A DNA stretch of 64,000 nt from a virus. Position 1 is the first letter of the stretch. Every line of letters starts with the position of its first letter. Of the stretch, positions 35,201 through 58,304 are shown in pieces. The position numbers and the translations under genes are program-made. The notes beneath the pieces are model-generated. The model made no database searches and had not been told where the DNA came from. It worked only from the letters and a program-made list of their open reading frames with translations. The stretch covers positions 1-64,000 of the IMG/VR virus record IMGVR_UViG_3300035660_000001. One strand, written 5' to 3'.

Positions 35201-35440
35201 GTGGAGACGTTAGTCGACATCATCCAGAGTGTGATCGAAAACATCTCGTCCCGAAAAGAGAGGGTTAACTGGACGTGGCAGGGGAAGATAAACGACCTGC
35301 CCGATTGGGTCGTTGAGAAGCTCAAGGAGTCAGAACGCCCGATCCATTTGACCGGGACGATCTGGGTCTGGGACGACAACGGGACCATCCGCTTGGGGAC
35401 GACGGGTTCTTATAGCGTCAGTCCCAAGAACCTGTCGTAG
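35201..35440 (+). CDS. leader-bearing hypothetical protein
   Basis: METLVDIIQSVIENISSR, shared with the next gene. Confidence 0.7.
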   Translation: METLVDIIQSVIENISSRKERVNWTWQGKINDLPDWVVEKLKESERPIHLTGTIWVWDDNGTIRLGTTGSYSVSPKNLS

Positions 35441-44362: not shown

Positions 44363-44395
44363 TCACGAGGGACTAGAGAGAACTCTAAAAGGAAC

Positions 44396-44510
44396 CTGGC
44401 GGGGCCGTCCAAAGCTCTGCGATAAGAAGGGGCCTGTAACACGGCCCCGCCAGTCTAAGAAAATCATCATCATGCTTCCCCAGAGACCTGCCGAAAACAG
44501 GGCTTGGGGA
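44396..44510 (+). promoter_or_regulatory. structured intergenic element after the capsid gene
   Basis: Perfect 13-bp stem 44396-44408/44441-44453 plus a second hairpin at about 44477-44510. Confidence 0.5.
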
Positions 44511-44533
44511 TTCTTGTCTTTATAGGAGGGCTC

Positions 44534-44941
44534 ATGAGTAAGGTTCTGATGAATGCGATATCGGAACTCGAGGGTTTTCTGAACGCCAGACCGCCCGTGA
44601 CGTCCCAGCGGGGATCGGGATTCGATCAGGAAATGTCGGATCTCGTCGCGAAGCTCGCCACAGAGATGGCGATCAAAATAGAAGCCGAGAAGGGCGACTT
44701 CTATACGATGCTTATGGAGGCGATCGGGGAGCGGTGGGAAGGAGCCATGAAGAAGGCCGGGCTCAGAGACGATGTCGATATCCTGGCGATCACGGAGAAC
44801 ATAGTCGATTGGCAGGCCGAGCATACTCAGGGAGGCATGGAGGCCGCGCTCTATGGTGTCCTCGACCGGCTCATCTCGGCTTGCAAGGCTACCGCACAGA
44901 ATCCCGTCTCGATGGCGAAGCGGGCGGGCGTCACTTTATAA
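44534..44941 (+). CDS. putative internal head (cargo) protein
   Basis: Leader MSKVLMNAISELEGFLNAR. Confidence 0.7.
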   Translation: MSKVLMNAISELEGFLNARPPVTSQRGSGFDQEMSDLVAKLATEMAIKIEAEKGDFYTMLMEAIGERWEGAMKKAGLRDDVDILAITENIVDWQAEHTQGGMEAALYGVLDRLISACKATAQNPVSMAKRAGVTL

Positions 44942-44950
44942 GGAGGCTCT

Positions 44951-45379
44951 ATGGACTATCTTTTGAACGTCATTAACTCCTGCCTCGTATCCCTGTCCGG
45001 AGAACCCAAGAGGGTCCGTCTCTCGAGTGCCACAAGCCTCAAGGACGTCTACGGGATGGGGCGGGGCGATCTCAAGCGGACGAAGGAGGTCTACGAGTGG
45101 CGCGACTCGACGTGGTATTCCATCGATGAAGCCGCTCGGCGTTTTGAACAAGCTGGGATCACAGAATACAACGAGTTCACCCCGAACAGCATCCGAGCCC
45201 TGAAGCGGATCGACCCACAGCTCGAGGTCCAGCTTGCCCGGGAGGGATCGCCGTGCGTTTACGTCAGGAAAGATGGGGCAGACCTCGAAGCGATTTCCGA
45301 GATGATCGAGGACTCCAAGAAGGTCGGGGCCGACGAGGTTCACGTTCGGAACAACGAGATCCGCCTCTGGTGGGACTGA
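44951..45379 (+). CDS. putative internal head (cargo) protein
   Basis: Leader MDYLLNVINSCLVSL...LSSA. Confidence 0.7.
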   Translation: MDYLLNVINSCLVSLSGEPKRVRLSSATSLKDVYGMGRGDLKRTKEVYEWRDSTWYSIDEAARRFEQAGITEYNEFTPNSIRALKRIDPQLEVQLAREGSPCVYVRKDGADLEAISEMIEDSKKVGADEVHVRNNEIRLWWD

Positions 45380-45380
45380 C

Positions 45381-45743
45381 ATGAAGAACCTTCTCGAGTC
45401 TCTGCGGAGCCTTGCGAGATCCCTTACGTCGGGGAAGCAGATTCTAACTTCCGGCCTCGAGAAGCACCTTACGGAGATTCTCGATGACGCCGGAATCGAA
45501 CGGAGCAGGTACGACTTCGATTGGTCGGATATCCCTGGGATAACGGTTTCCACCCCGAAGGATGCCGACGCCCTCATGAAGGTTATCGATGCCTCCAGGG
45601 AGATCGGGCCGACGAGGTGGAACCGGAGGAAAAAGAAAATTGAGCTGGGAACCCATGAGTCGCTCTTTAAGTCGACGACGGATGCCAAGACGATGACCTT
45701 CGACGAGTACGTGAAGAAGTTCAAGAACTTCGAGGTCGACTAA
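45381..45743 (+). CDS. putative internal head (cargo) protein
   Basis: Leader MKNLLESLRSLARSLTSG. Confidence 0.7.
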   Translation: MKNLLESLRSLARSLTSGKQILTSGLEKHLTEILDDAGIERSRYDFDWSDIPGITVSTPKDADALMKVIDASREIGPTRWNRRKKKIELGTHESLFKSTTDAKTMTFDEYVKKFKNFEVD

Positions 45744-46010
45744 GTGGACCTGCTTCTGTCCTCCGTTGATCGCCTGGGAAGGCTTCTAATCAACCAGGAG
45801 ATATCGCAGGCGATCGCCCAGCAGGTGCTTGAGGATATCGCCCCGGACTTCGACGTCGATCCGGAGCAGTTCCGGATGGGGCTTGCGGACGAGCTTGAAC
45901 ACTACGACGTCACCGGCGGGGATCTCGTGACCACGGGGCAGATCGCCCTGGCGCACCTCAAGGAGCATCCCGACTACTACACCAGGCTCAAGCAAGCGGG
46001 ACTGGATTGA
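45744..46010 (+). CDS. DUF5661-like domain protein with cargo leader
   Basis: MDLLLSSVDRL; FRMGLADELEH..GQIALAHLKEHPDYYTRL. Confidence 0.75.
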   Translation: MDLLLSSVDRLGRLLINQEISQAIAQQVLEDIAPDFDVDPEQFRMGLADELEHYDVTGGDLVTTGQIALAHLKEHPDYYTRLKQAGLD

Positions 46011-46327
46011 ATTGTCTCCTCGTATGCACACGGAGGGTCTGTTCAGCGGTCGATCTGGCTCCGGCGAAGGCAGTCAAGGCCGTGGCCTTCGAGATAGACG
46101 GTCGGGTCTACGAGGGAAGGCCGGGAGAGACACACGCCCGGCTGTTAGCCCGGCTTCCCGCCAGCGTGGTGGATCGGTACTACGATCTGATGGAGGATCC
46201 CGATGAGGCGGGTTTCGTCGACGGGTTCGTCATGAAGAACGGGGAGTTCCTTACCCGAGGGGACGTGATGGTGAGAACGGGCAAGCCTGGGGAGTCAACC
46301 GCTCTCGGAGTGTCTCCCCGGCGATGA
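46007..46327 (+). CDS. putative internal head (cargo) protein
   Basis: Degenerate leader MNCLLVCTRRV; GRVYEG..TH..GFV..GEFLTR. Confidence 0.65.
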   Translation: MNCLLVCTRRVCSAVDLAPAKAVKAVAFEIDGRVYEGRPGETHARLLARLPASVVDRYYDLMEDPDEAGFVDGFVMKNGEFLTRGDVMVRTGKPGESTALGVSPRR

Positions 46328-46791
46328 ACGGCCTCCTCCTGTTGGTCGGACAGATCGGGGATGAGCTCCGGTTTCAGGCCCGGACTGTGAAGCGTTCAGA
46401 AGACGAGCCGGACAAGAGGGTTGCTGGATGGCCCAATGCCGCCCGGGTCCCGTCGAGGGTGGAGTCCAAGAGCGAGTTTGAAGAAATCCTCGAGATGCTT
46501 CAGGAGCTCGGGAAGTCCGGGGAGTTCGAATTTACGTCACGCTATGGAGACCTGGACGATATCCCGAGGACGATAGAATCCCTGAAGCTTCAAGGCCGTG
46601 CGAATCCAGCGAGAGTCGACAAGACCGCCCAGGACATCATCCAGCAATACAAGGCCTATGGTTTCCCGACCGACTTCTATGGAATTCAGGACATGCTCCG
46701 CGACGCCGACTGGCCGGACGATGCGATCGTCCACGTGTGGGAGCGGGTGCGGGAGCTCGGCAAGAAACAGGGCATTCACTTTGTGGAGTGA
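46324..46791 (+). CDS. putative internal head (cargo) protein
   Basis: Leader MNGLLLLVGQIGDELRFQAR. Confidence 0.7.
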   Translation: MNGLLLLVGQIGDELRFQARTVKRSEDEPDKRVAGWPNAARVPSRVESKSEFEEILEMLQELGKSGEFEFTSRYGDLDDIPRTIESLKLQGRANPARVDKTAQDIIQQYKAYGFPTDFYGIQDMLRDADWPDDAIVHVWERVRELGKKQGIHFVE

Positions 46792-46797
46792 GGAATT

Positions 46798-47184
46798 ATG
46801 AAAGACCTGCTCGGTTTGGTCAATGCCGCAATGCCATCTCTGGCTCCGATGTCTCCGGCCTCCCCGACGAAGGACGTGCCGGACGACGAGTCCCGGAGGC
46901 GGATGGAGAAGAGGGACAATGAGAAGAAGGATGCCGTCCGGTCGGGGCATCTAACCTCGTCCTTCACTTATGCGAAACCGGAAAGGCATTATGATGTCGA
47001 AGATCTCCGAGGAAATACGTCCGGCTACATCGGCGGGGCGAACGTAGCCCGGAAGGCCTCGGACGATGAGCTTATCCTGATCGCCCAGCTCAAGGACGAG
47101 GCCGCAGGCTTCGCTAACCATGCGAAGGAGTTCTCGGATCGGGCCGAGTCGATCATGAGAGACATCGAAAGAAGGAAGGGATGA
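46798..47184 (+). CDS. putative internal head (cargo) protein
   Basis: Leader MKDLLGLVNAA. Confidence 0.7.
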   Translation: MKDLLGLVNAAMPSLAPMSPASPTKDVPDDESRRRMEKRDNEKKDAVRSGHLTSSFTYAKPERHYDVEDLRGNTSGYIGGANVARKASDDELILIAQLKDEAAGFANHAKEFSDRAESIMRDIERRKG

Positions 47185-47411
47185 AAAACCTACTGAGTGC
47201 AGTCGAAGCCCTGCAGTCCAAGGTGGACGAAGCTGATTTTTTAAGAAAGGCGCAGGATGCCTTCGACAATACCGAAGCGGCGGCGGGCGGGCTCATTGGC
47301 CTTCAGGACCATTTCAAGAGGGACAGTAGCGTGAAGAGGGAGCTGGAGAGGGACGTCGAAGAACTCGATCGGATCGCCAAGTTCATTACCAAAATCGCGG
47401 GGGTGAATTGA
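47181..47411 (+). CDS. putative internal head (cargo) protein
   Basis: Leader MKNLLSAVEALQS. Confidence 0.7.
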   Translation: MKNLLSAVEALQSKVDEADFLRKAQDAFDNTEAAAGGLIGLQDHFKRDSSVKRELERDVEELDRIAKFITKIAGVN

Positions 47412-47412
47412 G

Positions 47413-48291
47413 ATGGATAACTTGCTTCAAGCGGTCAAGAACGTAGCCTCCCAGGTGGGCCTGCAGTCTGCACGTGGTGGCGTAGACGATGACACCGCCC
47501 GGAGGTGGACGCATTCCTTCTACGCCCAGTTCGGCGGCATCACCTTCATAGTCATGAAGGACGAGAGCCCGTATGTGAAGATGGGCGATACCCTTACGGT
47601 CTCCACGGGCGGGGTTGTTCCGGAGGACATCACGGGGCCCAACAGCTACGTTTATCTTGAGCATGAGCTGGGGAGCGAAGAGCAGTGGGAGCAGTTTAAG
47701 ATCACGATCCCCGATCAGGAGAAATACTTCGCCCGCAAGACGGTCGGCAGGGATCAGTGGCAACTCCAATTCATAGCCGAGAACCTCAGTAAGGGAAAGT
47801 ATGTCATCGATGACGACCACCCCGACCGGATCAAACGGGAGTTCATCCAGTTTGTTGAGAGCATCGAAGAGCAGGACGACGATGACTTGGAGGACTCCCG
47901 GATCAGGCGTGGCCGGAGGCTGAACTCGGCCAGGGGTGACATTTGGCTGGACTCCGACGATGAGGTGAAGGCCCTCGGGAACTACGCTGAGGGATACGCC
48001 AAAGCCTTAACCGATCCGGAAATGGTCGATGCCATCAAGGATGCTTACGGCGAAGCCGTAGGCAAGCTTTCCGATGAGCTGATGCCTCCGTCGAAGGGTG
48101 ATATCGGATGGTCGGGTCTGGCCGACGTGTTCTACTATATCCTGAACCGTCAGACGGGAGGGGAGAATGGACAGCTCCGCAGGATCAAGGAGTTTCTCAA
48201 GGGTGAATTGGATGTCGCCAAGCAGATCGCCAAGAACCCGAGAAAAATGTTCGATGAAGCGGGCGGGATTATCAAGCCGAGGGGAGAATAG
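47413..48291 (+). CDS. putative two-domain cargo protein
   Basis: Leader MDNLLQAVKNVASQVGLQSARG; internal LNSARG. Confidence 0.72.
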   Translation: MDNLLQAVKNVASQVGLQSARGGVDDDTARRWTHSFYAQFGGITFIVMKDESPYVKMGDTLTVSTGGVVPEDITGPNSYVYLEHELGSEEQWEQFKITIPDQEKYFARKTVGRDQWQLQFIAENLSKGKYVIDDDHPDRIKREFIQFVESIEEQDDDDLEDSRIRRGRRLNSARGDIWLDSDDEVKALGNYAEGYAKALTDPEMVDAIKDAYGEAVGKLSDELMPPSKGDIGWSGLADVFYYILNRQTGGENGQLRRIKEFLKGELDVAKQIAKNPRKMFDEAGGIIKPRGE

Positions 48292-48294
48292 GTC

Positions 48295-48645
48295 GTGAAT
48301 AAGGAATTCAACGAAGCCTTCGGACGGTTGGAGCAGATTCTCTTCCCCGGAGTAGCCGCAGAGAAGAAGGGCGAGTTTCCTGGGGTGGACGTTACCGATC
48401 CGGTAGCTTCCGCTGTAGCCCCCGTCGAGACCAAGCAGGTCGTCCAGTCTGCCGGGGAGCCCTTGTTCATGTGCCAGGAGTGCGGGAAGAAGTTCTACAC
48501 GACAGCTTCTGCCGAGCGGGCGACGAATAACGGTTGCCCGAAGTGCGGGGGTGTGGATATTGACACCTACGTCAAGAGCTCGAAAATCGGGCCGATGAAC
48601 GATCTGGTGGCGTCTCTGCGGTCAATCGAAAGGAGCCTCAGATGA
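48295..48645 (+). CDS. zinc-ribbon protein in the cargo array
   Basis: VQSAG followed by CQEC..CPKC; ends in leader-like MNDLVASLRSIERSLR. Confidence 0.7.
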   Translation: MNKEFNEAFGRLEQILFPGVAAEKKGEFPGVDVTDPVASAVAPVETKQVVQSAGEPLFMCQECGKKFYTTASAERATNNGCPKCGGVDIDTYVKSSKIGPMNDLVASLRSIERSLR

Positions 48646-48911
48646 GAACCTTACTGGAAGCTATGCAGGCCGTCGAGACGGGACTAGTCTCCGCCCGGTC
48701 AACGGACACGTTGCGGGGAGACTTCGCCGTCCGGGCCGAGAAGTGCAAGGGCATCCTCGTCCAGGTCGACAAGCTCCTCGACCAGATTGAAAAGTATGAC
48801 CCCTACGGGGACATGATCGAGAACTTCGCCGATCCCGACGCGGACAGTAAGCGCGACCGGGTAACGACGAGGTTGATCGGCCAGATCAACGGAGACCTGG
48901 GACGTAAATGA
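48642..48911 (+). CDS. putative internal head (cargo) protein
   Basis: Leader MRTLLEAMQAVETGLVSAR. Confidence 0.72.
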   Translation: MRTLLEAMQAVETGLVSARSTDTLRGDFAVRAEKCKGILVQVDKLLDQIEKYDPYGDMIENFADPDADSKRDRVTTRLIGQINGDLGRK

Positions 48912-49264
48912 GAACCCTGCTGGAAGCAACCCGGGCGGTCGAGCGGGGTCTGGTGCTCTCGGCATTTCCGAGGCCCTCGGACTCGGAGCTACAGCGGAAG
49001 TGCGAGGAATATGCGAAGATGGCCGAACAGTTTCCAGAGTTTATGGACGAGGCTTACTTCGGGGAAGCCATCTTTAAATCCGAGCTGGGCAAGGATCACG
49101 ATGTGGCGATGGAGGTAGCGGAGATCTTCTGGTGGGCTCTCAGGGAAACGCCTCTAGGGAAGGGGCTCATGAGGAGAATAAACAGCCTTTCCAAGGAGAT
49201 GGCATCCTTCTGGCGGGATCTACAATCGAACGTCGCTAGCTGGCGGTCCAAGACAGGTCAATAA
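48908..49264 (+). CDS. putative internal head (cargo) protein
   Basis: Leader MRTLLEATRAVERGLVLSA. Confidence 0.72.
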   Translation: MRTLLEATRAVERGLVLSAFPRPSDSELQRKCEEYAKMAEQFPEFMDEAYFGEAIFKSELGKDHDVAMEVAEIFWWALRETPLGKGLMRRINSLSKEMASFWRDLQSNVASWRSKTGQ

Positions 49265-49272
49265 GGAGAATC

Positions 49273-50223
49273 ATGAATACCCTTTTGGAATCTTTGGACT
49301 CCCTCCGCAAGATGCTCGTCCTCTCGAGGTTTGAGGACGACCTGGAACCCGAAGAGGAAGATGTCTTCATCCAGGACACCCGGGGTGGCGGGACGGAAGC
49401 GAACCAGGGCGGGAAGACGATCGCTACCTTGGATGACGACTGGGACAAGTTCTACAAGGACATCCTGGGCTGGATGAATAAGAGCAAGTTCTGGCCGACC
49501 GTCTGGGTGGTCAGCGATCACGGGAACACGGAGGTCGACACCGACTTCATCACCTACTCGAGGAAGCACGGGGGGATGAGGGCCGCCGGGGTCGAAGGCA
49601 TCTACTCGAAGGTCGGGCCCACCGGCGACCTCGAGAGCCCTTCCTACCGGGAGGTCGACCATGAGTTCATGCGGATCGAAACCATGAGCATCCCAGCTCT
49701 CCGGACCCGTATCACGAAGATAGGGAAGCCGGAGAAGATGTATGCCTTTATCTACGCCCTCGAGAAGCAGGTCGACATCTACGGGGCAAATAGCCCGCAG
49801 GGTCAGGACTACAAAGAGCTGGCGGACTCAGCCCGGAACTACCTGAAGATCTGGGGCTACGACACGAGGGGCCGGGTCATGTCCGAGAAGCTCACCAACG
49901 CCGGGGAGGACCCGACGGCTACTCACAAGGAAGAGCTCTACACCCTGGCCGGGTTGATGACGGGGGCCGTCATGCCAGGCGATCTCCGGCAGGATATCCT
50001 CTCTGTGATCAAGGAGAAGGTGTGGCCGGAGATCGATGAGAAGGCCCGGATGATCAACAAGAGTAACCCGAAGGATTTGGCCCGGATAGCCGGAGACGCA
50101 TTCGAAGAGACGATGGGAGGAAGAACGTCGGCTTCCGGGGAGCTCGGCAACGCCCTTCGGTCCATCCAGGATGCCGTCGATGAAGTGTGGCATGCTCTCG
50201 CAAGAGAATGGGGGAAGAAGTGA
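49273..50223 (+). CDS. putative multi-domain cargo protein
   Basis: Leader MNTLLESLDSLRKMLVLSR; internal MRAAG and LTNAG. Confidence 0.72.
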   Translation: MNTLLESLDSLRKMLVLSRFEDDLEPEEEDVFIQDTRGGGTEANQGGKTIATLDDDWDKFYKDILGWMNKSKFWPTVWVVSDHGNTEVDTDFITYSRKHGGMRAAGVEGIYSKVGPTGDLESPSYREVDHEFMRIETMSIPALRTRITKIGKPEKMYAFIYALEKQVDIYGANSPQGQDYKELADSARNYLKIWGYDTRGRVMSEKLTNAGEDPTATHKEELYTLAGLMTGAVMPGDLRQDILSVIKEKVWPEIDEKARMINKSNPKDLARIAGDAFEETMGGRTSASGELGNALRSIQDAVDEVWHALAREWGKK

Positions 50224-50576
50224 TGGAGAATTTCAAAGAATCGGCTGACTGGCTGGGCGTTCTCTGCGGGGAGAGCGACGGGACGGAGATCGGGGACAAG
50301 CTGATGTCCGTCCGGGGTGGTGAGCCTGCGGCCTTTATGGACGACCAGGACCAGGAGAAGCTCGGAGAGACAATCAAGTGGGGCAAGGCCTCCGAGCAGT
50401 TCTTGGCGGAGCTGGCGAGCAACATCCGGTATGCCATAGCGTCCTACGATCCCAAGCACAAGTCGGAGATGGAGGATGTCGTGAGGCTTCTGCAGAAGGC
50501 CGCGACCGCTGGGGAGGAAATGTCGCATCAGGTCAAGAAGGCCGTGGAAATTCTCGAGAACAGGGACTGGGCTTAG
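50223..50576 (+). CDS. putative cargo protein, CGE-type leader
   Basis: MENFKESADWLGVLCGE. Confidence 0.65.
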   Translation: MENFKESADWLGVLCGESDGTEIGDKLMSVRGGEPAAFMDDQDQEKLGETIKWGKASEQFLAELASNIRYAIASYDPKHKSEMEDVVRLLQKAATAGEEMSHQVKKAVEILENRDWA

Positions 50577-50584
50577 GAGGGATC

Positions 50585-50887
50585 ATGAGAGATCAGGTGA
50601 TCAAAGCCCTGCAGGCGCTCGAGGCCACGATGAAGAAGGAGAGCAACATCATCGAATGGGTTTCCACTACCCTGCACAATGATGAGGCGTCATCGGATTC
50701 CGAGATGGCAGACCATTTCAAGAAAGAAGGTAAGGTCTCCAACGAGACGGCCTGGGATTTTGTCAGGCTCCGACAGAAGGCACTGAAGGGCCGCGATGTC
50801 ACTTCCGAGATCGCACAGATCCTCGAGAGGGGGGGGTTGGCCGATGGGGAGCTCTCGAGAGGGGAAGCCGTTGGAGAGTGGTCTTAG
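50585..50887 (+). CDS. putative cargo protein
   Basis: AGGAGG SD; MRDQVIKALQALEATM. Confidence 0.65.
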   Translation: MRDQVIKALQALEATMKKESNIIEWVSTTLHNDEASSDSEMADHFKKEGKVSNETAWDFVRLRQKALKGRDVTSEIAQILERGGLADGELSRGEAVGEWS

Positions 50888-51083
50888 GAACACGAAGGTT
50901 CTCATGAAGACCCTGATGGACGATCGGAGCAAGCCGAACCTGCAGTATGTGGAGGAGACCCTTTCAGACGGATCGAAGGCCTATAATATCATCGTCGGGG
51001 CTTTTGAATATGCCGCCAAAGACCGGGACGATGCGGATGCGGTCTACGAGGCGATCTACACCGCCGTGGGCGAGAAAGGATAG
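50844..51083 (+). CDS. hypothetical protein (separate gene or frameshifted continuation of 50585)
   Basis: PLESG...VEETLSDGSKAYNII; follows a G8 run. Confidence 0.5.
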   Translation: MGSSREGKPLESGLRNTKVLMKTLMDDRSKPNLQYVEETLSDGSKAYNIIVGAFEYAAKDRDDADAVYEAIYTAVGEKG

Positions 51084-51084
51084 C

Positions 51085-51459
51085 ATGAGCCAAGAGAATA
51101 AAGCCGTTTTAATCCTTGCCGAGCTTTGCGGAGAACCGATCGCGTCCGCAGGGCCCCGGGTCTTGGGCTACAAAGGCGTGGATCCCGCCGTCCTTCAGAA
51201 GACTGCCCTTCAGATAGCGAACGGGGGCGTTCTGGGTGATTCCCGGAAGCTCTTCGAGTATGTGCTGAAGTTCGTCAAGGATGCGGTCGGCCATTCCGGG
51301 GATGCCAAAGCCACTGCCGAGATCAATGACGTGCTCTTCCAGTACCTGCGGGACAATTCCGACTGCAAAGAGGGCATGGGATTGATCACGAATAAATTGC
51401 AGGAGGTCGTCCGTGAGATCGCAGAGAGCGACGACCCATTCGGTTTAAAGGGGACGTGA
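51085..51459 (+). CDS. putative cargo protein, CGE-type leader
   Basis: MSQENKAVLILAELCGEPIASAG. Confidence 0.7.
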   Translation: MSQENKAVLILAELCGEPIASAGPRVLGYKGVDPAVLQKTALQIANGGVLGDSRKLFEYVLKFVKDAVGHSGDAKATAEINDVLFQYLRDNSDCKEGMGLITNKLQEVVREIAESDDPFGLKGT

Positions 51460-52085
51460 GAGACTTGCTCGAAGCTGTTCGAACCCTATCCAGCGGGATC
51501 TTCCTGGGGCTCTATCTCGATCCCAACCGGGAGAAGGAGTTTCAGGACCTCGAGCCGTCTACGCAGTTTATGATGATGGAGCTCTTCCGAAGGGATCGGG
51601 TCTACGGGGACTACGATCGGAACGTGAAGCCGGACTTCCGGAGCCGCTTGTCGGACTACGGGATCCAATGCGAGGACGTCCTCTGGGTGAGCCCGAAGAT
51701 GAGCTGGAAGGATGAAGAGGGAGACAGCCCGGACTACTACTTCAGGCCCGAGCGCCTCGTTCTCAAGAACGCAGTGGTCAAGGACGTCAGGCTCTTTCTC
51801 AAGGAGGCCGGGGCGAATCCGAACGATCCAGAGGTCCAGAAAGCACTGAACGATCGTCGGTCTCCGGTGAGCATCTCATTCTCGACCCGGGGCTACGCCT
51901 GTGTTCCCCCGACGATCGGCGGGGCCGACCTGACGGAATTCATCCAGGGGGTCGTAGAGGAACTGCTCGGGACCCTGCAGGACGAGTACGGGGATATGAT
52001 TGCCAACAACGACGTGGCCGATATTCTGGTGGACGGGGATACCTGGAAACAATACGCCCGGCAGGTGGGGTTGAAGGCCGCATGA
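51456..52085 (+). CDS. putative internal head (cargo) protein
   Basis: Leader MRDLLEAVRTLSSG. Confidence 0.7.
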   Translation: MRDLLEAVRTLSSGIFLGLYLDPNREKEFQDLEPSTQFMMMELFRRDRVYGDYDRNVKPDFRSRLSDYGIQCEDVLWVSPKMSWKDEEGDSPDYYFRPERLVLKNAVVKDVRLFLKEAGANPNDPEVQKALNDRRSPVSISFSTRGYACVPPTIGGADLTEFIQGVVEELLGTLQDEYGDMIANNDVADILVDGDTWKQYARQVGLKAA

Positions 52086-52264
52086 AGGAATTATTGAACG
52101 CCATTACCGATCTCTCGCAGAATCTCAAGCTCGTGAACGTCTCCCCTCCGGGCTGGGGCGGGACCGTCCGGGCGATGAAGAAGCATAAGGACATCGACAA
52201 TCCCTTCGCCCTCGGCTGGTGGATGAAGAACCGGGGCGACAAACCGCACCACAAGGAGGACTGA
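52082..52264 (+). CDS. small putative cargo protein
   Basis: Leader MKELLNAITDL followed by SPPGWGGTVRAMKKH..IDNPFAL. Confidence 0.7.
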   Translation: MKELLNAITDLSQNLKLVNVSPPGWGGTVRAMKKHKDIDNPFALGWWMKNRGDKPHHKED

Positions 52265-52265
52265 C

Positions 52266-52550
52266 ATGAAAAAGGAAACTCGAGCCGTTCAGCTTCTGTC
52301 AGAACTTTGTGGCGAGGGTCAACCCTTGTCGAGCGTCCGGATGGGCAAGGTCGAGTTCGAAGCCTCGCCGGACAACAAGACCGTCGACATTATTTCCCGA
52401 TTTATCAAGGAACTCACCCAATACGGCTGGGTCATTGTAGATGGGGTCGTGCAGGATGCCGGAACGACGACCCTCGGTCATGATGGCACGAAGCGCGCCG
52501 TGCTGGGGATCACCATCAGCATTGTCAGGCCGAGCGATACCACGATTTAA
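52266..52550 (+). CDS. putative cargo protein, CGE-type leader
   Basis: MKKETRAVQLLSELCGE. Confidence 0.7.
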   Translation: MKKETRAVQLLSELCGEGQPLSSVRMGKVEFEASPDNKTVDIISRFIKELTQYGWVIVDGVVQDAGTTTLGHDGTKRAVLGITISIVRPSDTTI

Positions 52551-52564
52551 AGGAGGATAGTGAC

Positions 52565-53005
52565 ATGAATAGAGAAACTCGTGCCGTCCAGCTTCTGTCC
52601 TCGATGTGCGGGGAGCCGCTCCTTGACGCCCGGGGGACGTCGGTCTGGGATGTCAAGAACAAGCTCTCCACGAGGGACTTCCTGAAGGCTGGCCGTTACA
52701 TCTCGGGAGGGTTCGGATTTTGGGCCCATTCTGCTCTCGCTACGAACCCCGAGCTGGCCGATGCGTGGATCGAAGCCCTCCGGCAGAAGGGCTACTCCGA
52801 TCTCGAGATCGTTCTCTACGGGGACTTCAAGGACGGAAGGATGATCGGGGACGAGCTGGAACCCGACGACATGACCAAAGAGAAGGCTATCCAGATCATC
52901 AAGAAGCGGTCGATCAGCCCGAAGGAAGTTCGTCGGATCGCAGAGGGCGAGGGAACTTACCAGAACGCTCTCGAGGATCCCGACTTCACGAAGTTCTTCG
53001 TGTAG
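52565..53005 (+). CDS. putative cargo protein, CGE-type leader
   Basis: MNRETRAVQLLSSMCGEPLLDAR. Confidence 0.7.
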   Translation: MNRETRAVQLLSSMCGEPLLDARGTSVWDVKNKLSTRDFLKAGRYISGGFGFWAHSALATNPELADAWIEALRQKGYSDLEIVLYGDFKDGRMIGDELEPDDMTKEKAIQIIKKRSISPKEVRRIAEGEGTYQNALEDPDFTKFFV

Positions 53006-53008
53006 ACC

Positions 53009-53440
53009 ATGAGAGCCTTACTCGAATCCATCCGATCCCTTGCCGGGCTCTTCTCGGTAGGACAGGGTTCGGCTGGGAGAGTCAGGACGCCGGACGACCT
53101 CGGGGAGTCCCCGTTCTACGCCCGGCTGAAGGATACGCCACAGCGGGACAAGAAGCTGGCGACCGATCTCATGAAGATCGACGAGGACATCTGGCGGAGC
53201 AAGGGTTGGGATGACGCCTCGGGTCCCTGGGGGAACTGGGATGACTACAAAGAGAATGTCGAGGTTGCCGTCCGGAGGATCGGGATCCGACCGGGCACTC
53301 TCTCGGAGCGGGTGTGGGAGATCCTCGAGAACGAGAACTACCATTCGATCAACGGGGCCCTCGATGACCTCGCGATGTATAAGGTCAAGCACTACACTGA
53401 CGCCCAGATCAAGAAGCTGTTTCGGAGCAAATCCCAATGA
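53009..53440 (+). CDS. putative internal head (cargo) protein
   Basis: Leader MRALLESIRSLAGL..GSAG. Confidence 0.7.
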   Translation: MRALLESIRSLAGLFSVGQGSAGRVRTPDDLGESPFYARLKDTPQRDKKLATDLMKIDEDIWRSKGWDDASGPWGNWDDYKENVEVAVRRIGIRPGTLSERVWEILENENYHSINGALDDLAMYKVKHYTDAQIKKLFRSKSQ

Positions 53441-53449
53441 GGGGGTGCT

Positions 53450-53725
53450 ATGGACATAACACCGGAGGAAGCAAGGGTCGTTCAGAAGGTCGAGCATTAC
53501 CTTCGGGGTATCGACTATCACAACATCGTGGGGATGCTCTCCGGAGGGATTTCCAACGATCTCAGGTTCGCCGGGGTTGATCAGAAGGTGAGCGCGAAAT
53601 TATCCCATCGGTTGGTAGCACTTATAGACGTGCAGTACCTGGAAGGGACCCGGCAGAAGCTCCATGATCTGTCGAATAACCAGGCCCTGCTTCTGGACCT
53701 CGTTCGGGCCTCAATGACGGCATAG
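53450..53725 (+). CDS. hypothetical protein (no obvious leader)
   Basis: 91 aa ORF within the array. Confidence 0.6.
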   Translation: MDITPEEARVVQKVEHYLRGIDYHNIVGMLSGGISNDLRFAGVDQKVSAKLSHRLVALIDVQYLEGTRQKLHDLSNNQALLLDLVRASMTA

Positions 53726-53733
53726 GAGGACTT

Positions 53734-54051
53734 ATGAAGGAACTTCTCTTGGCGGTAACCTCGATTGATCAGATGGTTGGAGGGGCAAGGTTTCTCGGGT
53801 ATCCCGTGAAGGAGAAGCCGGTCCAGAGTGCCGTGGACGTTAACTCTATCTTGCGGTGGCTCGCCTCTCCCGACTCCGTGAAGATATGGATCGCCTCGGG
53901 GATCGGCTATCATCTCGAGGGCGTGGATGAGCTCCGTGGAAAGTCGAGACGGATCGGGGATCGGGTTGCAGAGAAGATTCCCCGTTCGGACATCCAGGCG
54001 ATTGCCGATGCCGTGAAGGACATACTACCCGATGTGATAGAAAGGGTGTAG
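53734..54051 (+). CDS. putative internal head (cargo) protein
   Basis: Leader MKELLLAVTSIDQMVGGAR; VQSA. Confidence 0.7.
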   Translation: MKELLLAVTSIDQMVGGARFLGYPVKEKPVQSAVDVNSILRWLASPDSVKIWIASGIGYHLEGVDELRGKSRRIGDRVAEKIPRSDIQAIADAVKDILPDVIERV

Positions 54052-54054
54052 AGG

Positions 54055-54672
54055 ATGAGATACTGGAAGAAGAATCCGAAATACGGTCAGATCTCCTGCG
54101 GGGGAAACATGTTCAGCTCCGGCTCGGTCATCGAAGGTGACCACTGGGCGATCTACGCCGCTCCCCCGGACGACCGTTTAATAGAGTGCGACGCTGGCGG
54201 TAATCCCTTATCGGCACCACCTCCACTTCCTGTGCTACATGCGCCGGTGTCCGACGCGCCGGTGCCTGGTCCAGCCGAAGGGATAATCTCCTCTGTGGCG
54301 TCGCCTGCCTCTCAGCCAGCGCCTCCGGAACCGGCTCCCGCCATGTCGCCTGCGCCCGAACCTCCGCAGGAAGCTGTTTTAGGAGTCGGGGATGGTCTTC
54401 AGTCGGAGACGACTGAGGCTGTGGAAGTACCTCTCCACACGATCGCCCCGGAGGCGCTCAAGGCTGAGGGCGAAAAGCCGCCCAAGGCGGGTCAACCCGA
54501 GCGGGAGGGGTCTGTGGCCGGATCGGAGGCCAAAGCCCCACCTGAAGCCCCTGGCGAAGCCCAGGGGGGCAAGAAGGAGGCATCCAAGCCCTCCAAACCC
54601 GGGTCGAAGCCCGTCCAGGTAGCATCCAAGACCCCCGGCAAGAAGGGCGGGCGGGGAACGGCGTATGTCTAA
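54055..54672 (+). CDS. Pro/Ala/Glu-rich low-complexity protein
   Basis: Short folded-looking N-terminus and a long low-complexity tail. Confidence 0.65.
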   Translation: MRYWKKNPKYGQISCGGNMFSSGSVIEGDHWAIYAAPPDDRLIECDAGGNPLSAPPPLPVLHAPVSDAPVPGPAEGIISSVASPASQPAPPEPAPAMSPAPEPPQEAVLGVGDGLQSETTEAVEVPLHTIAPEALKAEGEKPPKAGQPEREGSVAGSEAKAPPEAPGEAQGGKKEASKPSKPGSKPVQVASKTPGKKGGRGTAYV

Positions 54673-54681
54673 CCTCCGCAT

Positions 54682-55407
54682 GTGCCTGCGGACATGACCG
54701 AAGCCGAACTCAAAGCGGAAGTTTTCACCAACCTCGGGTTCGGGACGAAAGTCCAGGTCGAGCTCGAGGACGATCACTGGGCGGCCGCTTTGCAGAACAG
54801 CCTGCGCTGGTTTAACTCGAGACTGGGGTCGGAGGTCCTGGCTCGGGAGATCCCGGTTACAAGCTGGGAGTATGAAGAGCATGTCCTGCCGAGCGGGACG
54901 ATCGGGGTGAGCGAAGTATACGCCGGGCTGGATTACCTCGGTCAATTCTCGTTTGATATGCCCGGGTTTGTCCTCTGGCAGGTGGGGCACGACTACCGGA
55001 GGTTGGGGCATCGGTTTTCCGCTCTCGTTCTCTACCTTCAGCACTCGGAGACGCTCGGACGGATTGCCGGAGGCTACGGATGGGAGTATGAGCCTGGGAC
55101 CAGGATTCTGCGGACGTGGAAGCTCCCGCAGACGATCAGCTCTCTTTTCTACGATGCCTGGGTCGTAGCCAACAAGATCGAGGATGTTCAGGCCGTGGCG
55201 GATATCGATCTCATCGTTCGGAGGGTGACGGCACGATGTAAGCAGACGCTTGGAAGGATCAGGGGGAAGTATAAGCAGTATCCCGGACCCGGCGGTCCGG
55301 TCGAGATGGACGCCGACAAGCTGTTGGATGAAGCCGCTGAGGAGATCAAAGAGACGGATGAGTATATCCTGAGTAGGGCTTCGCAAATCCCGTTCGTGAC
55401 GGGTTAA
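54682..55407 (+). CDS. neck / head-tail adaptor protein (T4 gp13-like)
   Basis: LGFGTKVQVELEDDH..; A.CKQTLGRIRGKY..PGPGG.V.MD...L.EA.EE. Confidence 0.85.
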   Translation: MPADMTEAELKAEVFTNLGFGTKVQVELEDDHWAAALQNSLRWFNSRLGSEVLAREIPVTSWEYEEHVLPSGTIGVSEVYAGLDYLGQFSFDMPGFVLWQVGHDYRRLGHRFSALVLYLQHSETLGRIAGGYGWEYEPGTRILRTWKLPQTISSLFYDAWVVANKIEDVQAVADIDLIVRRVTARCKQTLGRIRGKYKQYPGPGGPVEMDADKLLDEAAEEIKETDEYILSRASQIPFVTG

Positions 55408-55434
55408 CGTTTAACGCTAGAGGAGGAATCTAAA

Positions 55435-55779
55435 ATGACGTTCGCAGTGACGCAGGGTCAGATCAAAGAGCATTACGCCCCGGGCGGCGCGTATCAGGCC
55501 GTCCACACCGCCGAGGAGACGTTGGACTTCAGGCTCGGCGACCTCGTTCCGGCTGTCAAGGAGTACCTGGCGCCGGACGACTTGTCCGCCGTGGCAAACC
55601 TGGCCGCTCTCCTGGTGGCGATCGACGCCACCGTGACGGGCGCTCTCAAGACGTACCTGGACGCCGTCATCGCCGCTCAGATGCCGATCATGTTCTCGGG
55701 GCGGGACGGCTTCGCCGGGACGATGTCCTTCGTGATCGCCATTCTGATCATGTCGGGCTACTACCTCAACATCACCTAA
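55435..55779 (+). CDS. hypothetical protein (possibly structural)
   Basis: GAGGAGG SD; strongly GC3-biased codons. Confidence 0.7.
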   Translation: MTFAVTQGQIKEHYAPGGAYQAVHTAEETLDFRLGDLVPAVKEYLAPDDLSAVANLAALLVAIDATVTGALKTYLDAVIAAQMPIMFSGRDGFAGTMSFVIAILIMSGYYLNIT

Positions 55780-55806
55780 ACTGTTTCGGGGCGGGGGGTC
55801 TTCTTC

Positions 55807-56607
55807 ATGGTTTCCATTGCTCCGGCTCTCACCTCCCTTCGAGAGCTCCTTGAAACCCCGGCCAAGCTCCCCGCCCCCGCAGTTAGGTTCGTCGACAAGG
55901 CTGATGAGGTAGGGCACAAGCCAGCAGATGAAGATCTGCCGGGAATTGGTTTCGGGGTTAGAGCTCGAAGGGGAGGTGGAAGCGGTGTTGGAGATAGAGG
56001 AGGTGGGGTCGAGAGCATGAAGGAGTTAATGGCGGACATCCTGGGCGTTCTAGACACGATCAAACAGCGTCCCCATGCCATGAGGGTGACGGACGATGAG
56101 AAGCTCGAGAACCTCGTGACGAGGGATGCCTTCGGGAATCGCCTGCGTGGTCAGGATCAGTATATGGTCCGGCTTATCGGGCGGGGGCTGTGGCTTACCC
56201 CGAAGGGGCCGGGTAACTACACGGAGGATCCCGAGGACGCCTATCTCATGACTGGCTTCGAGGCCGAGCGATACATTCGGGGGAATTCCAACCTGGAAGC
56301 GATCTCCTACGAATCCTACGAGAAGCGGGGCTTGCGGTCGGATCGTCTGGATCCGAGGGATTCAGAAGGAACGCCTTTGAGGGAGGGTGATTACATCATT
56401 CGGAAGGCAGGCTCTTTCGGTCCAAGCAAGAGGACGGGGTTTGGTCTCCGGGCCGACAATGTTTATGCGGTGAAGAGCCTTTACGAAATGTCTGGGATAA
56501 CCTACGTTAATGCGTGGCCCATTACTCCTGGCCGGACGAAGACCGTTAACCCGGCTGTGATGTTCACCAAGATCACCGATGATGAAGTCCGGGCTTTGGA
56601 GAAATAA
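55807..56607 (+). CDS. putative cargo protein (second leader-like start at 56017)
   Basis: Internal MKELMADILGVLDTI. Confidence 0.6.
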   Translation: MVSIAPALTSLRELLETPAKLPAPAVRFVDKADEVGHKPADEDLPGIGFGVRARRGGGSGVGDRGGGVESMKELMADILGVLDTIKQRPHAMRVTDDEKLENLVTRDAFGNRLRGQDQYMVRLIGRGLWLTPKGPGNYTEDPEDAYLMTGFEAERYIRGNSNLEAISYESYEKRGLRSDRLDPRDSEGTPLREGDYIIRKAGSFGPSKRTGFGLRADNVYAVKSLYEMSGITYVNAWPITPGRTKTVNPAVMFTKITDDEVRALEK

Positions 56608-57198
56608 GTGGAGCCCGAAGGACTTACCCTCCACGACGTCGGGACGGACAGCAAGGGCTGGTTCGTCGTCCTGCAGGATAAGGAGGGCGGGCTTGCCAAA
56701 TACTGGTTTCCAAGCCAGCGGTATACGAAGGCGTTCCTCGACGACTTCCGGTTCGATAAGAAGAAGGGAGTCGAGACCCTCGAGAAGCGTTCGACTGGCA
56801 CCGAGACGATCGGGGATAATCTCAAGGCCGAGGATTCGTTCAGCGTCCGTTTGATAGAGCCCGACAAGGGCGATCCGTTCTTTGAAGTTCAGCGGGGCGA
56901 CAAGAAGCGATACCGCTACTACGTTCCGAAGAAGGACATGATAGAGATTGCCCGGGAGCTTTCCGACCAGACGTCCACGGAGCAGTTTAATCGTGTTCTC
57001 GGTATGTTGAACGATGTCGCCTATCTCGTGCAGGTGGAGAAGGCCACGGGGACGGGAGACTGGGAGACCGTCCGGCAGGACAAGGAGCAGACTTACGATG
57101 ACCCCGTCCACCTGAAGCCGATCGACAGCCCCTACTTTACGGTAACCGTTTCGCATCATCTCGAGCACATGCTGGGACTGCTTTCTCATGGCCGATAG
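56608..57198 (+). CDS. hypothetical protein
   Basis: 196 aa coupled ORF. Confidence 0.65.
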   Translation: MEPEGLTLHDVGTDSKGWFVVLQDKEGGLAKYWFPSQRYTKAFLDDFRFDKKKGVETLEKRSTGTETIGDNLKAEDSFSVRLIEPDKGDPFFEVQRGDKKRYRYYVPKKDMIEIARELSDQTSTEQFNRVLGMLNDVAYLVQVEKATGTGDWETVRQDKEQTYDDPVHLKPIDSPYFTVTVSHHLEHMLGLLSHGR

Positions 57199-57670
57199 AT
57201 TCTTTGAAAATCCCCGTGACCGGAGAATGTTCGACGGCGTCGCACAGGAGGTTCCGGCCCTCAGCGGGTTCCACATCAGTTACTACTCCCTCAATCGTGC
57301 GGCCTCGATTCAGGACCCGCTGTATCAGGAGCCCACGACGGAGTCTGATTTCGTCTTTCTCGGACCTTACGACATCATCGGGAATCTCGAAGTCCCGACC
57401 TGGACGTGGGAGGAGAACGAGGTCGGAGGGATCGGGGAGATCGATGCGCTCGCCCACCTGCCCCGGAAGAGCATTGAGGACAATCACTGGCCTCTCCCGA
57501 AGCGGGGAGATATCCTGTTAGTTTGGAATACGCCACAGCCTTTATTTACGAAGTATGATATCGTGAAGGTCACGCCGACGGAGTTCTACTGGGGGACGGG
57601 TGACCACATGTTCTGGACTTGTGAACTTAAACGGCATGCCGATGCGCCAGGGGAGCAGAAAATACCATGA
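57188..57670 (+). CDS. head completion / neck protein (T4 gp14-like)
   Basis: QEV..SG..ISYY...DPLYQE...PKRGDIL. Confidence 0.65.
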   Translation: MADRFFENPRDRRMFDGVAQEVPALSGFHISYYSLNRAASIQDPLYQEPTTESDFVFLGPYDIIGNLEVPTWTWEENEVGGIGEIDALAHLPRKSIEDNHWPLPKRGDILLVWNTPQPLFTKYDIVKVTPTEFYWGTGDHMFWTCELKRHADAPGEQKIP

Positions 57671-58002
57671 GCTTAAAAGTTCTGTTAAATGAAGTGCAGG
57701 CGTTGGAGGCGGCGATCGTCTCCGGAGCGAAGACGCCGCTCAAGCAGTGGAAGCGAGTTCCTTACCGGAGGGTGCCCGTGACGTCTGGCAAGGTAGTATC
57801 CCCGTTCAGCAGGGACGCCCGCAGGGCTACCAAGAGGGTCGTGAAGTCCGATCTGGGCCTCACCATGCGCTCGAAGTCCCGCAAGGACAAAGAGCACAGG
57901 CTTCACCGGAAGGCCGTGGAGGGCGGACACACCCTGGCCGGACAGGTGAAGGGCCTCATGGACATTTTCAACTCGGTTGATCTCAAGGTGAGGGCGACAT
58001 GA
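57667..58002 (+). CDS. basic putative cargo protein
   Basis: Leader MSLKVLLNEVQALEAAIVSGA. Confidence 0.65.
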   Translation: MSLKVLLNEVQALEAAIVSGAKTPLKQWKRVPYRRVPVTSGKVVSPFSRDARRATKRVVKSDLGLTMRSKSRKDKEHRLHRKAVEGGHTLAGQVKGLMDIFNSVDLKVRAT

Positions 58003-58304
58003 ACGATCTGCTTAAGTCTGTCGCATTGACAGAGGAGACCTTGAAGTCCGCCATCTCTCCCGGGGAAGCCGGGCTCAGGAGTGGGGATCCCGAGAAGCAA
58101 CAGGCCGAGATTGCAGAGAACGTCTCGAAGCTCGTCGGGGTCGTCGGGGAGATGAAGAAGCTCGCCAACGATCTCTATAACGAACAGGTGAAGGGGGATG
58201 GGGATACCAGGCGGATCGGGCGGCTCGCAAATAATTTCAAAGACGCCGTCCGGAGAGCCAGCGTTATGATCGTCGCCCTTACCGATATCACCGATCAGTG
58301 GTAG
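57999..58304 (+). CDS. putative cargo protein
   Basis: Leader MNDLLKSVALTEETLKSA. Confidence 0.68.
   Translation: MNDLLKSVALTEETLKSAISPGEAGLRSGDPEKQQAEIAENVSKLVGVVGEMKKLANDLYNEQVKGDGDTRRIGRLANNFKDAVRRASVMIVALTDITDQW

What the first reader, a model, noticed from the sequence alone, without database searches (positions are those of the whole stretch)
44534..58304. Array of about 24 unrelated small proteins sharing an N-terminal leader: a candidate modular capsid-cargo (packaged effector) system
SEEN: between the capsid and tail genes, ORF after ORF begins with the same roughly 15-20 aa amphipathic pattern M-x-x-L-L-x-[AS]-[VIL]-x-x-[LV], then diverges completely. Examples: MKNLLESLRSL (45381), MDLLLSSVDRL (45744), MKDLLGLVNAA (46798), MKNLLSAVEAL (47181), MDNLLQAVKNV (47413), MRTLLEAMQAV (48642), MRTLLEATRAV (48908), MNTLLESLDSL (49273), MRDLLEAVRTL (51456), MKELLNAITDL (52082), MRALLESIRSL (53009), MKELLLAVTSI (53734), MKELMADILGV (56017), MSLKVLLNEVQAL (57667), MNDLLKSVALT (57999). 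Looser versions start 44534, 44951, 46007, 46324 and 50585, and four more ORFs carry a second leader class (separate finding). The leader is rare in the first 44 kb. KNOWN: T4 internal proteins (IPI/II/III) use a short N-terminal capsid-targeting sequence that gp21 removes, and IPI* is injected to block the GmrSD restriction enzyme. INFERENCE: this leader docks diverse payload domains onto the prohead core, giving a large, exchangeable set of virion-delivered proteins such as anti-defence or host-takeover factors. It could also serve as an engineering tag.
Basis: partly seen in the sequence, partly recalled or inferred. Interest (0 to 1): 0.9.

Follow-up and report, generated by a model that had tools for sequence, protein, structure and literature searches.

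The report
Shared address tag on phage proteins
An uncultivated 160-kb phage with a T4-type head puts the same short helical N-terminal tag on about twenty otherwise unrelated small proteins encoded beside its capsid gene, most likely to load them into the capsid for delivery with the DNA; this is a larger, differently spelled version of a trick known from phage T4.

Summary
In the complete 160,139-bp genome, a strict leader pattern hits 10 start sites, all on the + strand at 45.3-53.8 kb. In leave-one-out profile tests, 13 of 15 leaders beat every other position in six frames. About five more members fit only loosely. Four carry a second leader ending in C-G-E.

The tag is selected as a peptide: six different Leu codons occur at position 4. 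It is predicted as a separate helix followed by a linker and then the domain. It is an add-on, because stand-alone relatives of two payloads lack it. The payloads are unrelated to each other.

Three payload domains recur inside giant "polyvalent" proteins elsewhere. Two of them are fused to head-maturation proteases in other phages, one of them a cultured Vibrio phage. A sister phage (about 88% identical) differs by whole-cassette gains, losses and swaps.

The best reading, at about 0.6, is a capsid-targeting tag like T4's. It differs in being longer, having no fixed Glu cleavage site, and serving about 24 genes. Packaging, cleavage and injection are untested.

Other agents in this scan noted similar tag arrays on other T4-like phage DNA. 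I rate it a new variant of a known kind, interest about 0.6.

The parts
37872..39518 (+). T4-type portal protein (context)
   Evidence: PF07230 Portal_T4 1.7e-70; phrog_213
40579..41301 (+). Highly charged head-core or scaffold candidate; possible docking partner
   Evidence: No family hit. N-terminal motif L-x-x-L-E-E-D-L-x-x-L-G-L recurs in the genes before the protease in relatives
41337..42860 (+). Prohead protease (S77, gp21-like) fused to a ~300-aa coiled-coil scaffold-like C-terminus; starts MEKLLL and keeps L-V-E at residues 17-19
   Evidence: PF03420 1.9e-16; phrog_207 1.1e-44; alignment A1
42917..44362 (+). Major capsid protein, gp23-like; its maturation-site column reads L-A-S (43064-43072) where 39 relatives have hydrophobic-x-E
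   Evidence: PF07068 5.7e-68; alignment of 41 N-termini
44534..44941 (+). Loose class-1 leader (MSKVLMNAISELEGF) plus 135-aa ORFan
   Evidence: (loose pattern)
44951..45379 (+). Weak class-1 leader (MDYLLNVINSCLVSL) plus payload
   Evidence: failed leave-one-out
45381..45743 (+). Class-1 leader (MKNLLESLRSLARSL) plus payload; the whole cassette is absent from the sister phage
45744..46010 (+). Class-1 leader plus DUF5661 domain
   Evidence: PF18905 8.7e-15 at residues 38-84. Stand-alone homologs start about 17 residues later. AF2 model: helix 3-16, then domain 22-85
46007..46327 (+). Loose class-1 leader (MNCLLVCTRRV) plus payload
46324..46791 (+). Weak class-1 leader plus payload; 155 aa here, 78 aa in the sister
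46798..47184 (+). Class-1 leader plus payload
47181..47411 (+). Class-1 leader plus 76-aa payload
47413..48291 (+). Class-1 leader plus 292-aa payload
48295..48645 (+). Zn-ribbon protein with a doubtful N-terminal leader and an in-frame orphan class-1 leader at its C-end (48595-48645, MNDLVASLRSIERSLR)
48642..48911 (+). Class-1 leader plus payload
48908..49264 (+). Class-1 leader plus payload. In the sister the leader is kept (11/16) but the payload is only 36% identical; DNA identity ends 55 nt into the gene
49273..50223 (+). Class-1 leader plus a widespread ~70-aa 'WPxVW..SDHGN' domain (residues 20-100), a second mobile domain (residues 116-210) and a C-terminal part
   Evidence: AF2 model: helix 3-19, linker, domain 31-98 with pLDDT above 90
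50223..50576 (+). Class-2 leader (…WLGVLCGE) plus payload
50585..50887 (+). Loose class-1 leader (offset +1) plus a payload domain also found in P0198
51085..51459 (+). Class-2 leader (MSQENKAVLILAELCGE) plus payload
51456..52085 (+). Class-1 leader plus 209-aa payload
52082..52264 (+). Class-1 leader plus 60-aa basic protein; the sister allele carries an intein
52266..52550 (+). Class-2 leader (MKKETRAVQLLSELCGE) plus payload. Missing in the sister, where this leader is joined to the next payload
52565..53005 (+). Class-2 leader (MNRETRAVQLLSSMCGE) plus payload
53009..53440 (+). Class-1 leader plus payload
53734..54051 (+). Class-1 leader plus payload; the whole cassette is absent from the sister
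54682..55407 (+). Conserved neck protein (gp13-like), no leader; marks the end of the main block
   Evidence: phrog_211 2.1e-7; 42% identical to the L006 gene on record as PF26809 Phage_T4_gp13
56017..56607 (+). Loose class-1 leader (MKELMADILGVL) plus payload, lying between neck genes
57188..57670 (+). Conserved structural gene, no leader
   Evidence: Homologs in L006 and L007
57667..58002 (+). Loose class-1 leader (offset +2) plus very basic 111-aa protein
57999..58304 (+). Class-1 leader plus payload; last member

Best explanation
The block is a lineage-specific expansion of accessory late genes inside a T4-type head-neck operon. Each gene encodes an N-terminal amphipathic helix of about 15 residues (class 1: M-x-x-L-L-x-[AS]-[VIL]-x-x-[LV]-x-x-x-[LV]; class 2: …AVxLLxxLCGE), then a short linker and an independent payload domain. 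The helix most likely acts as an address tag. It would bind the prohead core (the coiled-coil tail of the protease-scaffold fusion, or the charged 40579 protein), so the payload is enclosed when the capsid shell forms, stays in the head with the DNA, and enters the next host cell with it. [quoted passage not shown] The payloads come from the same pool of small domains that other phages and plasmids string together in 'polyvalent' injected proteins or fuse directly to their head proteases. Here the domains are unbundled, one tag per gene. Cassettes are gained, lost and swapped by recombination at gene boundaries and within leader-coding DNA. SHOWN: the tag's specificity to this block, selection at the peptide level, its add-on nature, payload diversity, the domain links, and cassette turnover. 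INFERRED: late co-expression, binding to the core, encapsidation, any cleavage, ejection, and effector roles.
For: The head is T4-type. The tag occurs only in this block of a complete genome. It is selected as a peptide: position 4 uses 6 Leu codons and position 5 uses 4, and no upstream DNA is conserved beyond the ribosome-binding site. Genes are packed at -4 to +16 nt within the head-neck operon. AF2 models show the leader as a separate helix ahead of a confident domain in two members. DUF5661 homologs and SDHGN-domain homologs elsewhere lack the tag. The SDHGN domain sits inside a 1066-aa S77 prohead protease-scaffold protein, P0262. DUF5661 sits inside the head maturation protease of cultured Vibrio phage VPs20, encoded between the terminase and capsid genes. 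In relative L008, a DUF5661 protein lies in the same slot after the capsid gene. P0198 combines three of the array's payload domains in one protein. P0152, P0159 and P0301 combine them with InPase and ART-PolyVal, which are hallmark domains of polyvalent proteins predicted to be injected (PMC5512222). Comparison with the sister phage shows whole-cassette indels, a leader-to-leader deletion and a payload swap behind a conserved leader. T4 precedent: 10-19-residue N-terminal tags are sufficient for packaging, and the internal proteins of T-even phages are diverse with only the tag conserved (PMC9026906, PMC3012670).
Against: There are no virion data. Class-1 leaders have no Glu or other invariant residue at a fixed distance that would mark a gp21-type cut; all characterised T4-like and giant-phage proteases cut after Glu (PMC5694885). 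The payloads are mostly acidic (median pI 5.15), unlike the basic T4 IPII and IPIII. Only two genomes carry the tag, so co-variation with head genes cannot be tested. Relatives with 45-49% capsid identity have no such tags. Only 3 of about 24 payloads have the domain links. DUF5661 also occurs fused to bacterial amino-acid transporters, so it is not exclusive to heads.
Confidence: 0.6

Rival explanations
1. The tagged proteins are packaged, but they are structural or packing components of the head interior (an inner-body or core-like set, or DNA-condensing proteins) rather than injected effectors.
For: The genes lie in the head module. The leader has a coiled-coil-like heptad spacing that could build a core. 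DUF5661 appears to be a regular part of one head-protease family (phrog_530 profile matched nearly end to end). Giant phages have many internal head proteins (PMC5694885).
Against: Members are dispensable and variable between two phages about 88% identical. The payloads are unrelated to each other. Payload domains are shared with polyvalent proteins that carry enzymes. Relatives build the same head without them.
Confidence: 0.15
2. The leader is a recognition tag for some other machine, such as a modifying enzyme (RiPP-like), a chaperone, or an export or degradation system, and not a capsid address.
For: An earlier AI note (e1-127136, not checked here) reports that a shared N-terminal tag in RB43-like phages tracks a radical-SAM enzyme. 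This genome encodes two radical-SAM proteins and, according to other unchecked notes, ATP-grasp and ubiquitin-like systems. Class-1 leaders lack a protease site.
Against: The radical-SAM genes lie at 76.2 and 101.9 kb, 18-44 kb from the array. The array is embedded in and translationally packed with head and neck genes. Payload domains are fused to head proteases elsewhere.
Confidence: 0.12
3. These are ordinary late accessory proteins (morons) that act in the producing cell. The N-terminal helix is a generic oligomerisation or membrane-surface helix that spread by duplication.
For: The genes are in tandem, most are ORFans, and amphipathic N-terminal helices are common.
Against: The pattern is far more specific than general amphipathicity: all strict hits fall in one block. 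It is attached to domains of independent origin. The hydrophobic face is narrow and Leu-rich rather than membrane-like (inference). Cassette swaps keep the leader while replacing the payload.
Confidence: 0.1

Closest known systems
T4 capsid targeting sequence on internal proteins IPI/II/III and Alt, and the polymorphic ip loci of T-even phages (Mullaney and Black 1996; Repoila et al. 1994, as cited in PMC9026906 and PMC3012670)
   Same: Both have a T4-type portal, protease and capsid. Both put a short N-terminal tag on otherwise unrelated proteins. In both, the loci differ between close relatives. The early positions look alike (Met, basic or polar, x, hydrophobic-4, x, often Glu-6, x, hydrophobic-8), compared from my own memory of MKTYQEFIAE.
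   Different: The tag here is about 15 residues and helical, against 10 in T4. Class 1 has no L/I-x-E at a fixed position. About 24 genes are tagged in one contiguous block (8.6% of the genome), against 3-4 in T4. There are two tag classes. The payloads are mostly acidic. Nothing has been tested experimentally.
Polyvalent proteins of phages and conjugative elements (Iyer et al. 2017, PMC5512222)
   Same: Three payload domains of the array occur in such proteins together with InPase and ART-PolyVal. Both are predicted to be delivered with the DNA, and both are encoded beside virion genes.
   Different: Here each domain, or pair of domains, is a separate small gene with its own tag, instead of 2-15 domains in one polypeptide.
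Propeptide-bearing internal head and ejection proteins of giant phages phiKZ, 201phi2-1 and SPN3US (PMC5694885)
   Same: Both have a gp21-like protease, many internal head proteins, and conserved N-termini on diverged proteins (SPN3US gp53/gp54).
   Different: The giant-phage propeptides are mostly over 100 residues and are cut at [AS G]-x-E. Here only the class-2 C-G-E resembles that motif.
Head-maturation protease or scaffold fusions carrying passenger domains (P0262; Vibrio phage vB_VpaM_VPs20 DUF2213+DUF5661 protein)
   Same: The same passenger domains appear (the SDHGN domain and DUF5661), tied to the prohead interior.
   Different: In those proteins the link is covalent. Here a detachable tag is presumed to do the job.
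Encapsulin cargo-loading peptides
   Same: A short terminal peptide directs diverse cargo into an HK97-fold shell.
   Different: Encapsulin peptides bind the shell protein itself, are usually C-terminal, and involve no DNA or ejection. This comparison is from my own knowledge and is only an analogy.

Membership tests
T4-type CTS-tagged internal head proteins | Phage builds its head with a gp20-type portal, a gp21-type (S77) prohead protease and a gp23-type capsid protein | tested here: met
   PF07230 1.7e-70, PF03420 1.9e-16, PF07068 5.7e-68; PHROGs agree
T4-type CTS-tagged internal head proteins | Short shared N-terminal peptide on proteins that are otherwise unrelated | tested here: met
T4-type CTS-tagged internal head proteins | Tag ends in the protease site (L/I-x-E at about residue 10-19) and is removed | tested here: not met
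   Class-1 leaders have no Glu at a fixed position. Class 2 has an invariant C-G-E at residues 15-19, which is only suggestive. Cleavage itself cannot be tested here.
T4-type CTS-tagged internal head proteins | Proteins are present inside the virion and are ejected | not testable with these tools
   Needs virion proteomics.
T4-type CTS-tagged internal head proteins | Locus is polymorphic between close relatives while the tag is kept | tested here: met
   Sister phage comparison
Polyvalent proteins (Iyer et al. 2017) | Two to fifteen disparate domains in one polypeptide | tested here: not met
   Array genes are 60-316 aa with one to three small domains each
Polyvalent proteins (Iyer et al. 2017) | Domains drawn from the polyvalent-protein domain pool | tested here: met
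   The payload domains of 49273, 50585 and 45744 co-occur in P0198. They occur with InPase or ART-PolyVal in P0152, P0159 and P0301. The other roughly 20 payloads are untested or ORFans.
RiPP-like or enzyme-recognition leader tags | A dedicated modifying enzyme is encoded next to the tagged genes | tested here: not met
   No enzyme family found in the block. The radical-SAM genes lie at 76.2 and 101.9 kb. Action from a distance is not excluded.
Tandem paralog family | Detectable similarity along the whole protein | tested here: not met
   BLASTP of payload parts: all E>0.05. Payloads have different independent homolog families.

The most novel reading that the evidence does not exclude
This lineage has rebuilt T4-type head loading. 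A 15-residue helical tag that no longer depends on a Glu cleavage site (the capsid protein's own maturation site has also lost its Glu, reading L-A-S here and L-A-N in the sister) loads about 24 separately encoded payloads. In effect this is a polyvalent injected protein taken apart into swappable single-domain cassettes. It would give a packaging tag orthogonal to T4's and a natural library of co-injected factors.
Probability: 0.2. Interest if true: 0.8.

Novelty: new variant of a known kind. Interest (0 to 1): 0.6.

Why it matters
If the tag does load proteins into the head, then 8.6% of this genome encodes proteins that can be predicted from sequence alone to arrive in the host with the DNA. 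That would offer a direct route to new counter-defence or takeover factors, most of which have no known relatives. It would also link two ideas that are usually treated separately: T4's capsid-targeting tag and the giant polyvalent injected proteins. The same small domains could then be delivered in three ways: by a tag, by fusion to the head protease, or strung together in one polypeptide. A second, differently spelled packaging tag would also be useful for loading foreign proteins into phage capsids.

Tried and rejected
- Co-folding of a leader (40 aa, alignment of 19 leaders) with the protease-scaffold fusion and the 40579 protein gave no answer (score 0.00). This is neither for nor against binding.
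- Pfam and PHROGs on about 30 array proteins found only DUF5661 (45744) and a Zn-ribbon (48295).
- Fold searches of the SDHGN-domain model (Foldseek PDB; VIA wide, best Z 5.2) and of the DUF5661 model gave no convincing match, so payload functions stay unknown.
- PDB sequence searches of 47413 and 51456 found nothing usable.
- The nearest database phage by capsid protein (LR756511, 33% identity) has no array.
- Three relatives at 45-49% capsid identity have 1-5 genes in the slot and no M-x-x-L-L leaders.
- tblastn of the SDHGN domain against 50,697 phage records found no match.
- The promoter and terminator scan showed nothing above shuffles.
- The context of P0126, a DUF5661 protein with a different N-terminal extension, was uninformative.
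- The Repoila 1994 paper is not held, so it is cited only through reviews.
- I rejected a DNA-level repeat or recombination-site explanation for the shared start, because codons differ freely while residues are kept.
- I considered the hydrophobic-x-[SN]-[AG] idea as a cleavage site. It is enriched in residues 9-25 of array proteins (11/32 against 15/200, p=1.2e-4). However, it is present in only a third of them, and the capsid site differs (S versus N) between the sisters, so I do not rely on it.

Full report
WHAT IS THERE

The window is the first 64 kb of a complete 160,139-bp phage genome with direct terminal repeats. Almost all genes are on the + strand.

The head module is T4-type:
- a portal at 37872-39518 (PF07230, 1.7e-70);
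- an S77 gp21-like prohead protease at 41337-42860 (PF03420, 1.9e-16), fused to a coiled-coil tail of about 300 aa;
- a gp23-like capsid protein at 42917-44362 (PF07068, 5.7e-68);
- a tail sheath at 60650.

Between the capsid gene and the sheath lie about 32 tightly packed genes, with gaps of -4 to +16 nt. Four of them (54682 gp13-like, 57188, 58704, 59521) have homologs in related phages. The rest do not.

THE LEADER IS REAL AND SPECIFIC

A strict pattern was run over all 4385 start-codon candidates in six frames of the genome. It hit 10 sites, all in this block. A 16-residue profile separates members (9-18 bits) from every other position in the genome (4.8 bits or less). The one exception is an in-frame orphan leader at 48595, which is also inside the block. 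In leave-one-out tests, 13 of 15 leaders still beat the genome-wide background.

About five further genes fit only by hydrophobic spacing. Four carry a second leader ending in an invariant C-G-E.

The conservation is in the peptide, not the DNA. Leu-4 uses six different codons and Leu-5 uses four. Upstream DNA shares only ribosome-binding sites.

THE LEADER IS AN ADD-ON TO INDEPENDENT DOMAINS

The payload parts show no similarity to one another. Most have no family assignment.

- Gene 45744 carries DUF5661. Twenty-odd stand-alone DUF5661 proteins from other sources start about 17 residues later and have no leader.
- Residues 20-100 of 49273 form a widespread domain of about 70 aa (WPxVW..SDHGN), with 164 hits at E<=1e-3. 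It occurs as small stand-alone proteins and inside large ones; none of the 47 stand-alone homologs I read carries the leader.
- AF2 models of both proteins show an N-terminal helix (residues 3-19 and 3-16), then a linker, then a confident compact domain.

WHERE THE PAYLOAD DOMAINS OCCUR ELSEWHERE

- The SDHGN domain lies inside P0262, a 1066-aa S77 prohead protease-scaffold protein of another phage.
- It also lies at the end of two giant proteins that carry InPase (P0152, P0159).
- DUF5661 lies inside the head maturation protease of the cultured Vibrio phage vB_VpaM_VPs20 (phrog_530 2.6e-64; DUF2213 1.4e-34; DUF5661 1.2e-18). That gene sits between the terminase and capsid genes.
- DUF5661 also occurs in P0301 with ART-PolyVal and InPase.
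- In relative L008, a DUF5661 protein occupies the same slot after the capsid gene.
- One 751-aa protein, P0198, contains the payload domains of three different array genes: 49273, 50585 and 45744.

InPase and ART-PolyVal are signature domains of 'polyvalent proteins', which Iyer et al. proposed are packaged and injected with the DNA (PMC5512222). These fusions are indirect evidence, independent of the leader itself, that at least some payloads belong inside heads.

TURNOVER BETWEEN SISTER PHAGES

A sister phage (IMG/VR contig of 159.5 kb, capsid protein 91% identical) aligns at about 82-91% DNA identity over most of the block (single pieces 79-97%). The breaks fall at gene boundaries:
- cassettes 45381 and 53734 are absent from the sister;
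- the sister has an extra tagged gene (MRELLSSLVLVEGSL…) between 46007 and 46324;
- the two class-2 genes 52266 and 52565 correspond to a single sister gene, made of the first leader joined to the second payload, with a 46-nt overlap of homology;
- gene 48908 keeps its leader (11/16) but has a payload only 36% identical.

Relatives at 45-49% capsid identity have only 1-5 genes between the capsid and gp13-like genes, and no such leaders. The block is therefore a lineage-specific expansion.

HOW IT MOST LIKELY WORKS

In T4, N-terminal propeptides of 10-19 residues target IPI-III and Alt to the prohead core. The first 10 residues of IPIII are sufficient, and they also carry foreign proteins into the head. 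Internal proteins differ between T-even phages while the tag is kept (PMC9026906, PMC3012670).

The present tag shares that logic and the type of head. I therefore read it as a capsid-loading address that probably docks on the coiled-coil core.

The differences from T4 matter:
- The tag is longer.
- Class 1 has no Glu at a fixed position.
- In the capsid protein, the column where 39 relatives have hydrophobic-x-E reads L-A-S here and L-A-N in the sister. By position this column corresponds to T4's gp23 cleavage site, a placement I make from my own knowledge of gp23.
- The protease N-terminus, in contrast, keeps L-V-E.

So whether the tag is cut off, and where, remains open. A hydrophobic-x-[SN]-[AG] motif is enriched just after the leaders (p=1.2e-4), but it is present in only a third of them.

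LIMITS

- There are no virion data.
- Only two genomes carry the tag.
- Only three payloads have informative relatives.
- The payloads are mostly acidic.
- The co-folding test gave no answer.
- Fold searches did not reveal functions.

COMPARISON AND VERDICT

The system works like the T4 CTS system, but it fails the strict family criterion of a tag that ends in L/I-x-E. It shares domains with polyvalent proteins but is not one. Earlier notes of this scan describe similar tag arrays in other T4-like phages. Those notes are unchecked leads, and they show that the scan found this kind of thing before on other DNA.

I rate it a new variant of a known kind. My confidence in the capsid-address reading is about 0.6, and interest is about 0.6.

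Noticed in passing
L004:9486-10631 (sister phage) versus window 52082-52264: The sister's ortholog of the 60-aa tagged protein is 381 aa because an intein-like insert (…NPFAL|CLGGDTEV…SHN|SYWMK…) splits it. The window has the empty allele. An intein in such a tiny accessory protein is unusual.
   Followed up: partly
window 43064-43072 (capsid protein residues 50-52): In the alignment column where 39 related capsid proteins have hydrophobic-x-E (the expected maturation cut), this phage has L-A-S and its sister has L-A-N. The protease N-terminus still has L-V-E.
   Followed up: partly
window 35201-35440 and 35445-35903: Two adjacent genes upstream of the portal share a different N-terminal pattern (METLVDIIQSVIENISS / MDSLVDILQSTIRSLSS) with unrelated remainders. 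This may be a third tag class outside the array.
   Followed up: no
L006:1172-4927 and L007:4865-7000: The portal genes of two related phages are interrupted by inteins (Intein_splicing hits within Portal_T4).
   Followed up: no
L006:5039-8521: In one relative, the gene before the protease is a 1160-aa protein. It starts with the same N-terminal motif as window gene 40579 and then carries extra domains (DUF8033). It looks like a head-core protein loaded with passenger domains.
   Followed up: no
L009:1798-4053 (P0198): The multi-domain protein that holds three array payload domains has recurring R/K-x-N-P…R-R-P linkers between domains. These may be processing sites.
   Followed up: no
window 44363-44533: The only long gap at the head of the block (171 nt after the capsid gene) holds a GC-rich hairpin (44429-44448). 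It may be an attenuator that sets capsid-to-cargo expression ratios.
   Followed up: no
window 55807-56016: The reading frame of 56017 is open for 70 codons upstream (alternative ATG at 55807). A strong GAGGAGG precedes 56017, so the tagged start is more likely. This leaves a 237-nt stretch that is either untranslated or has an uncertain start.
   Followed up: no
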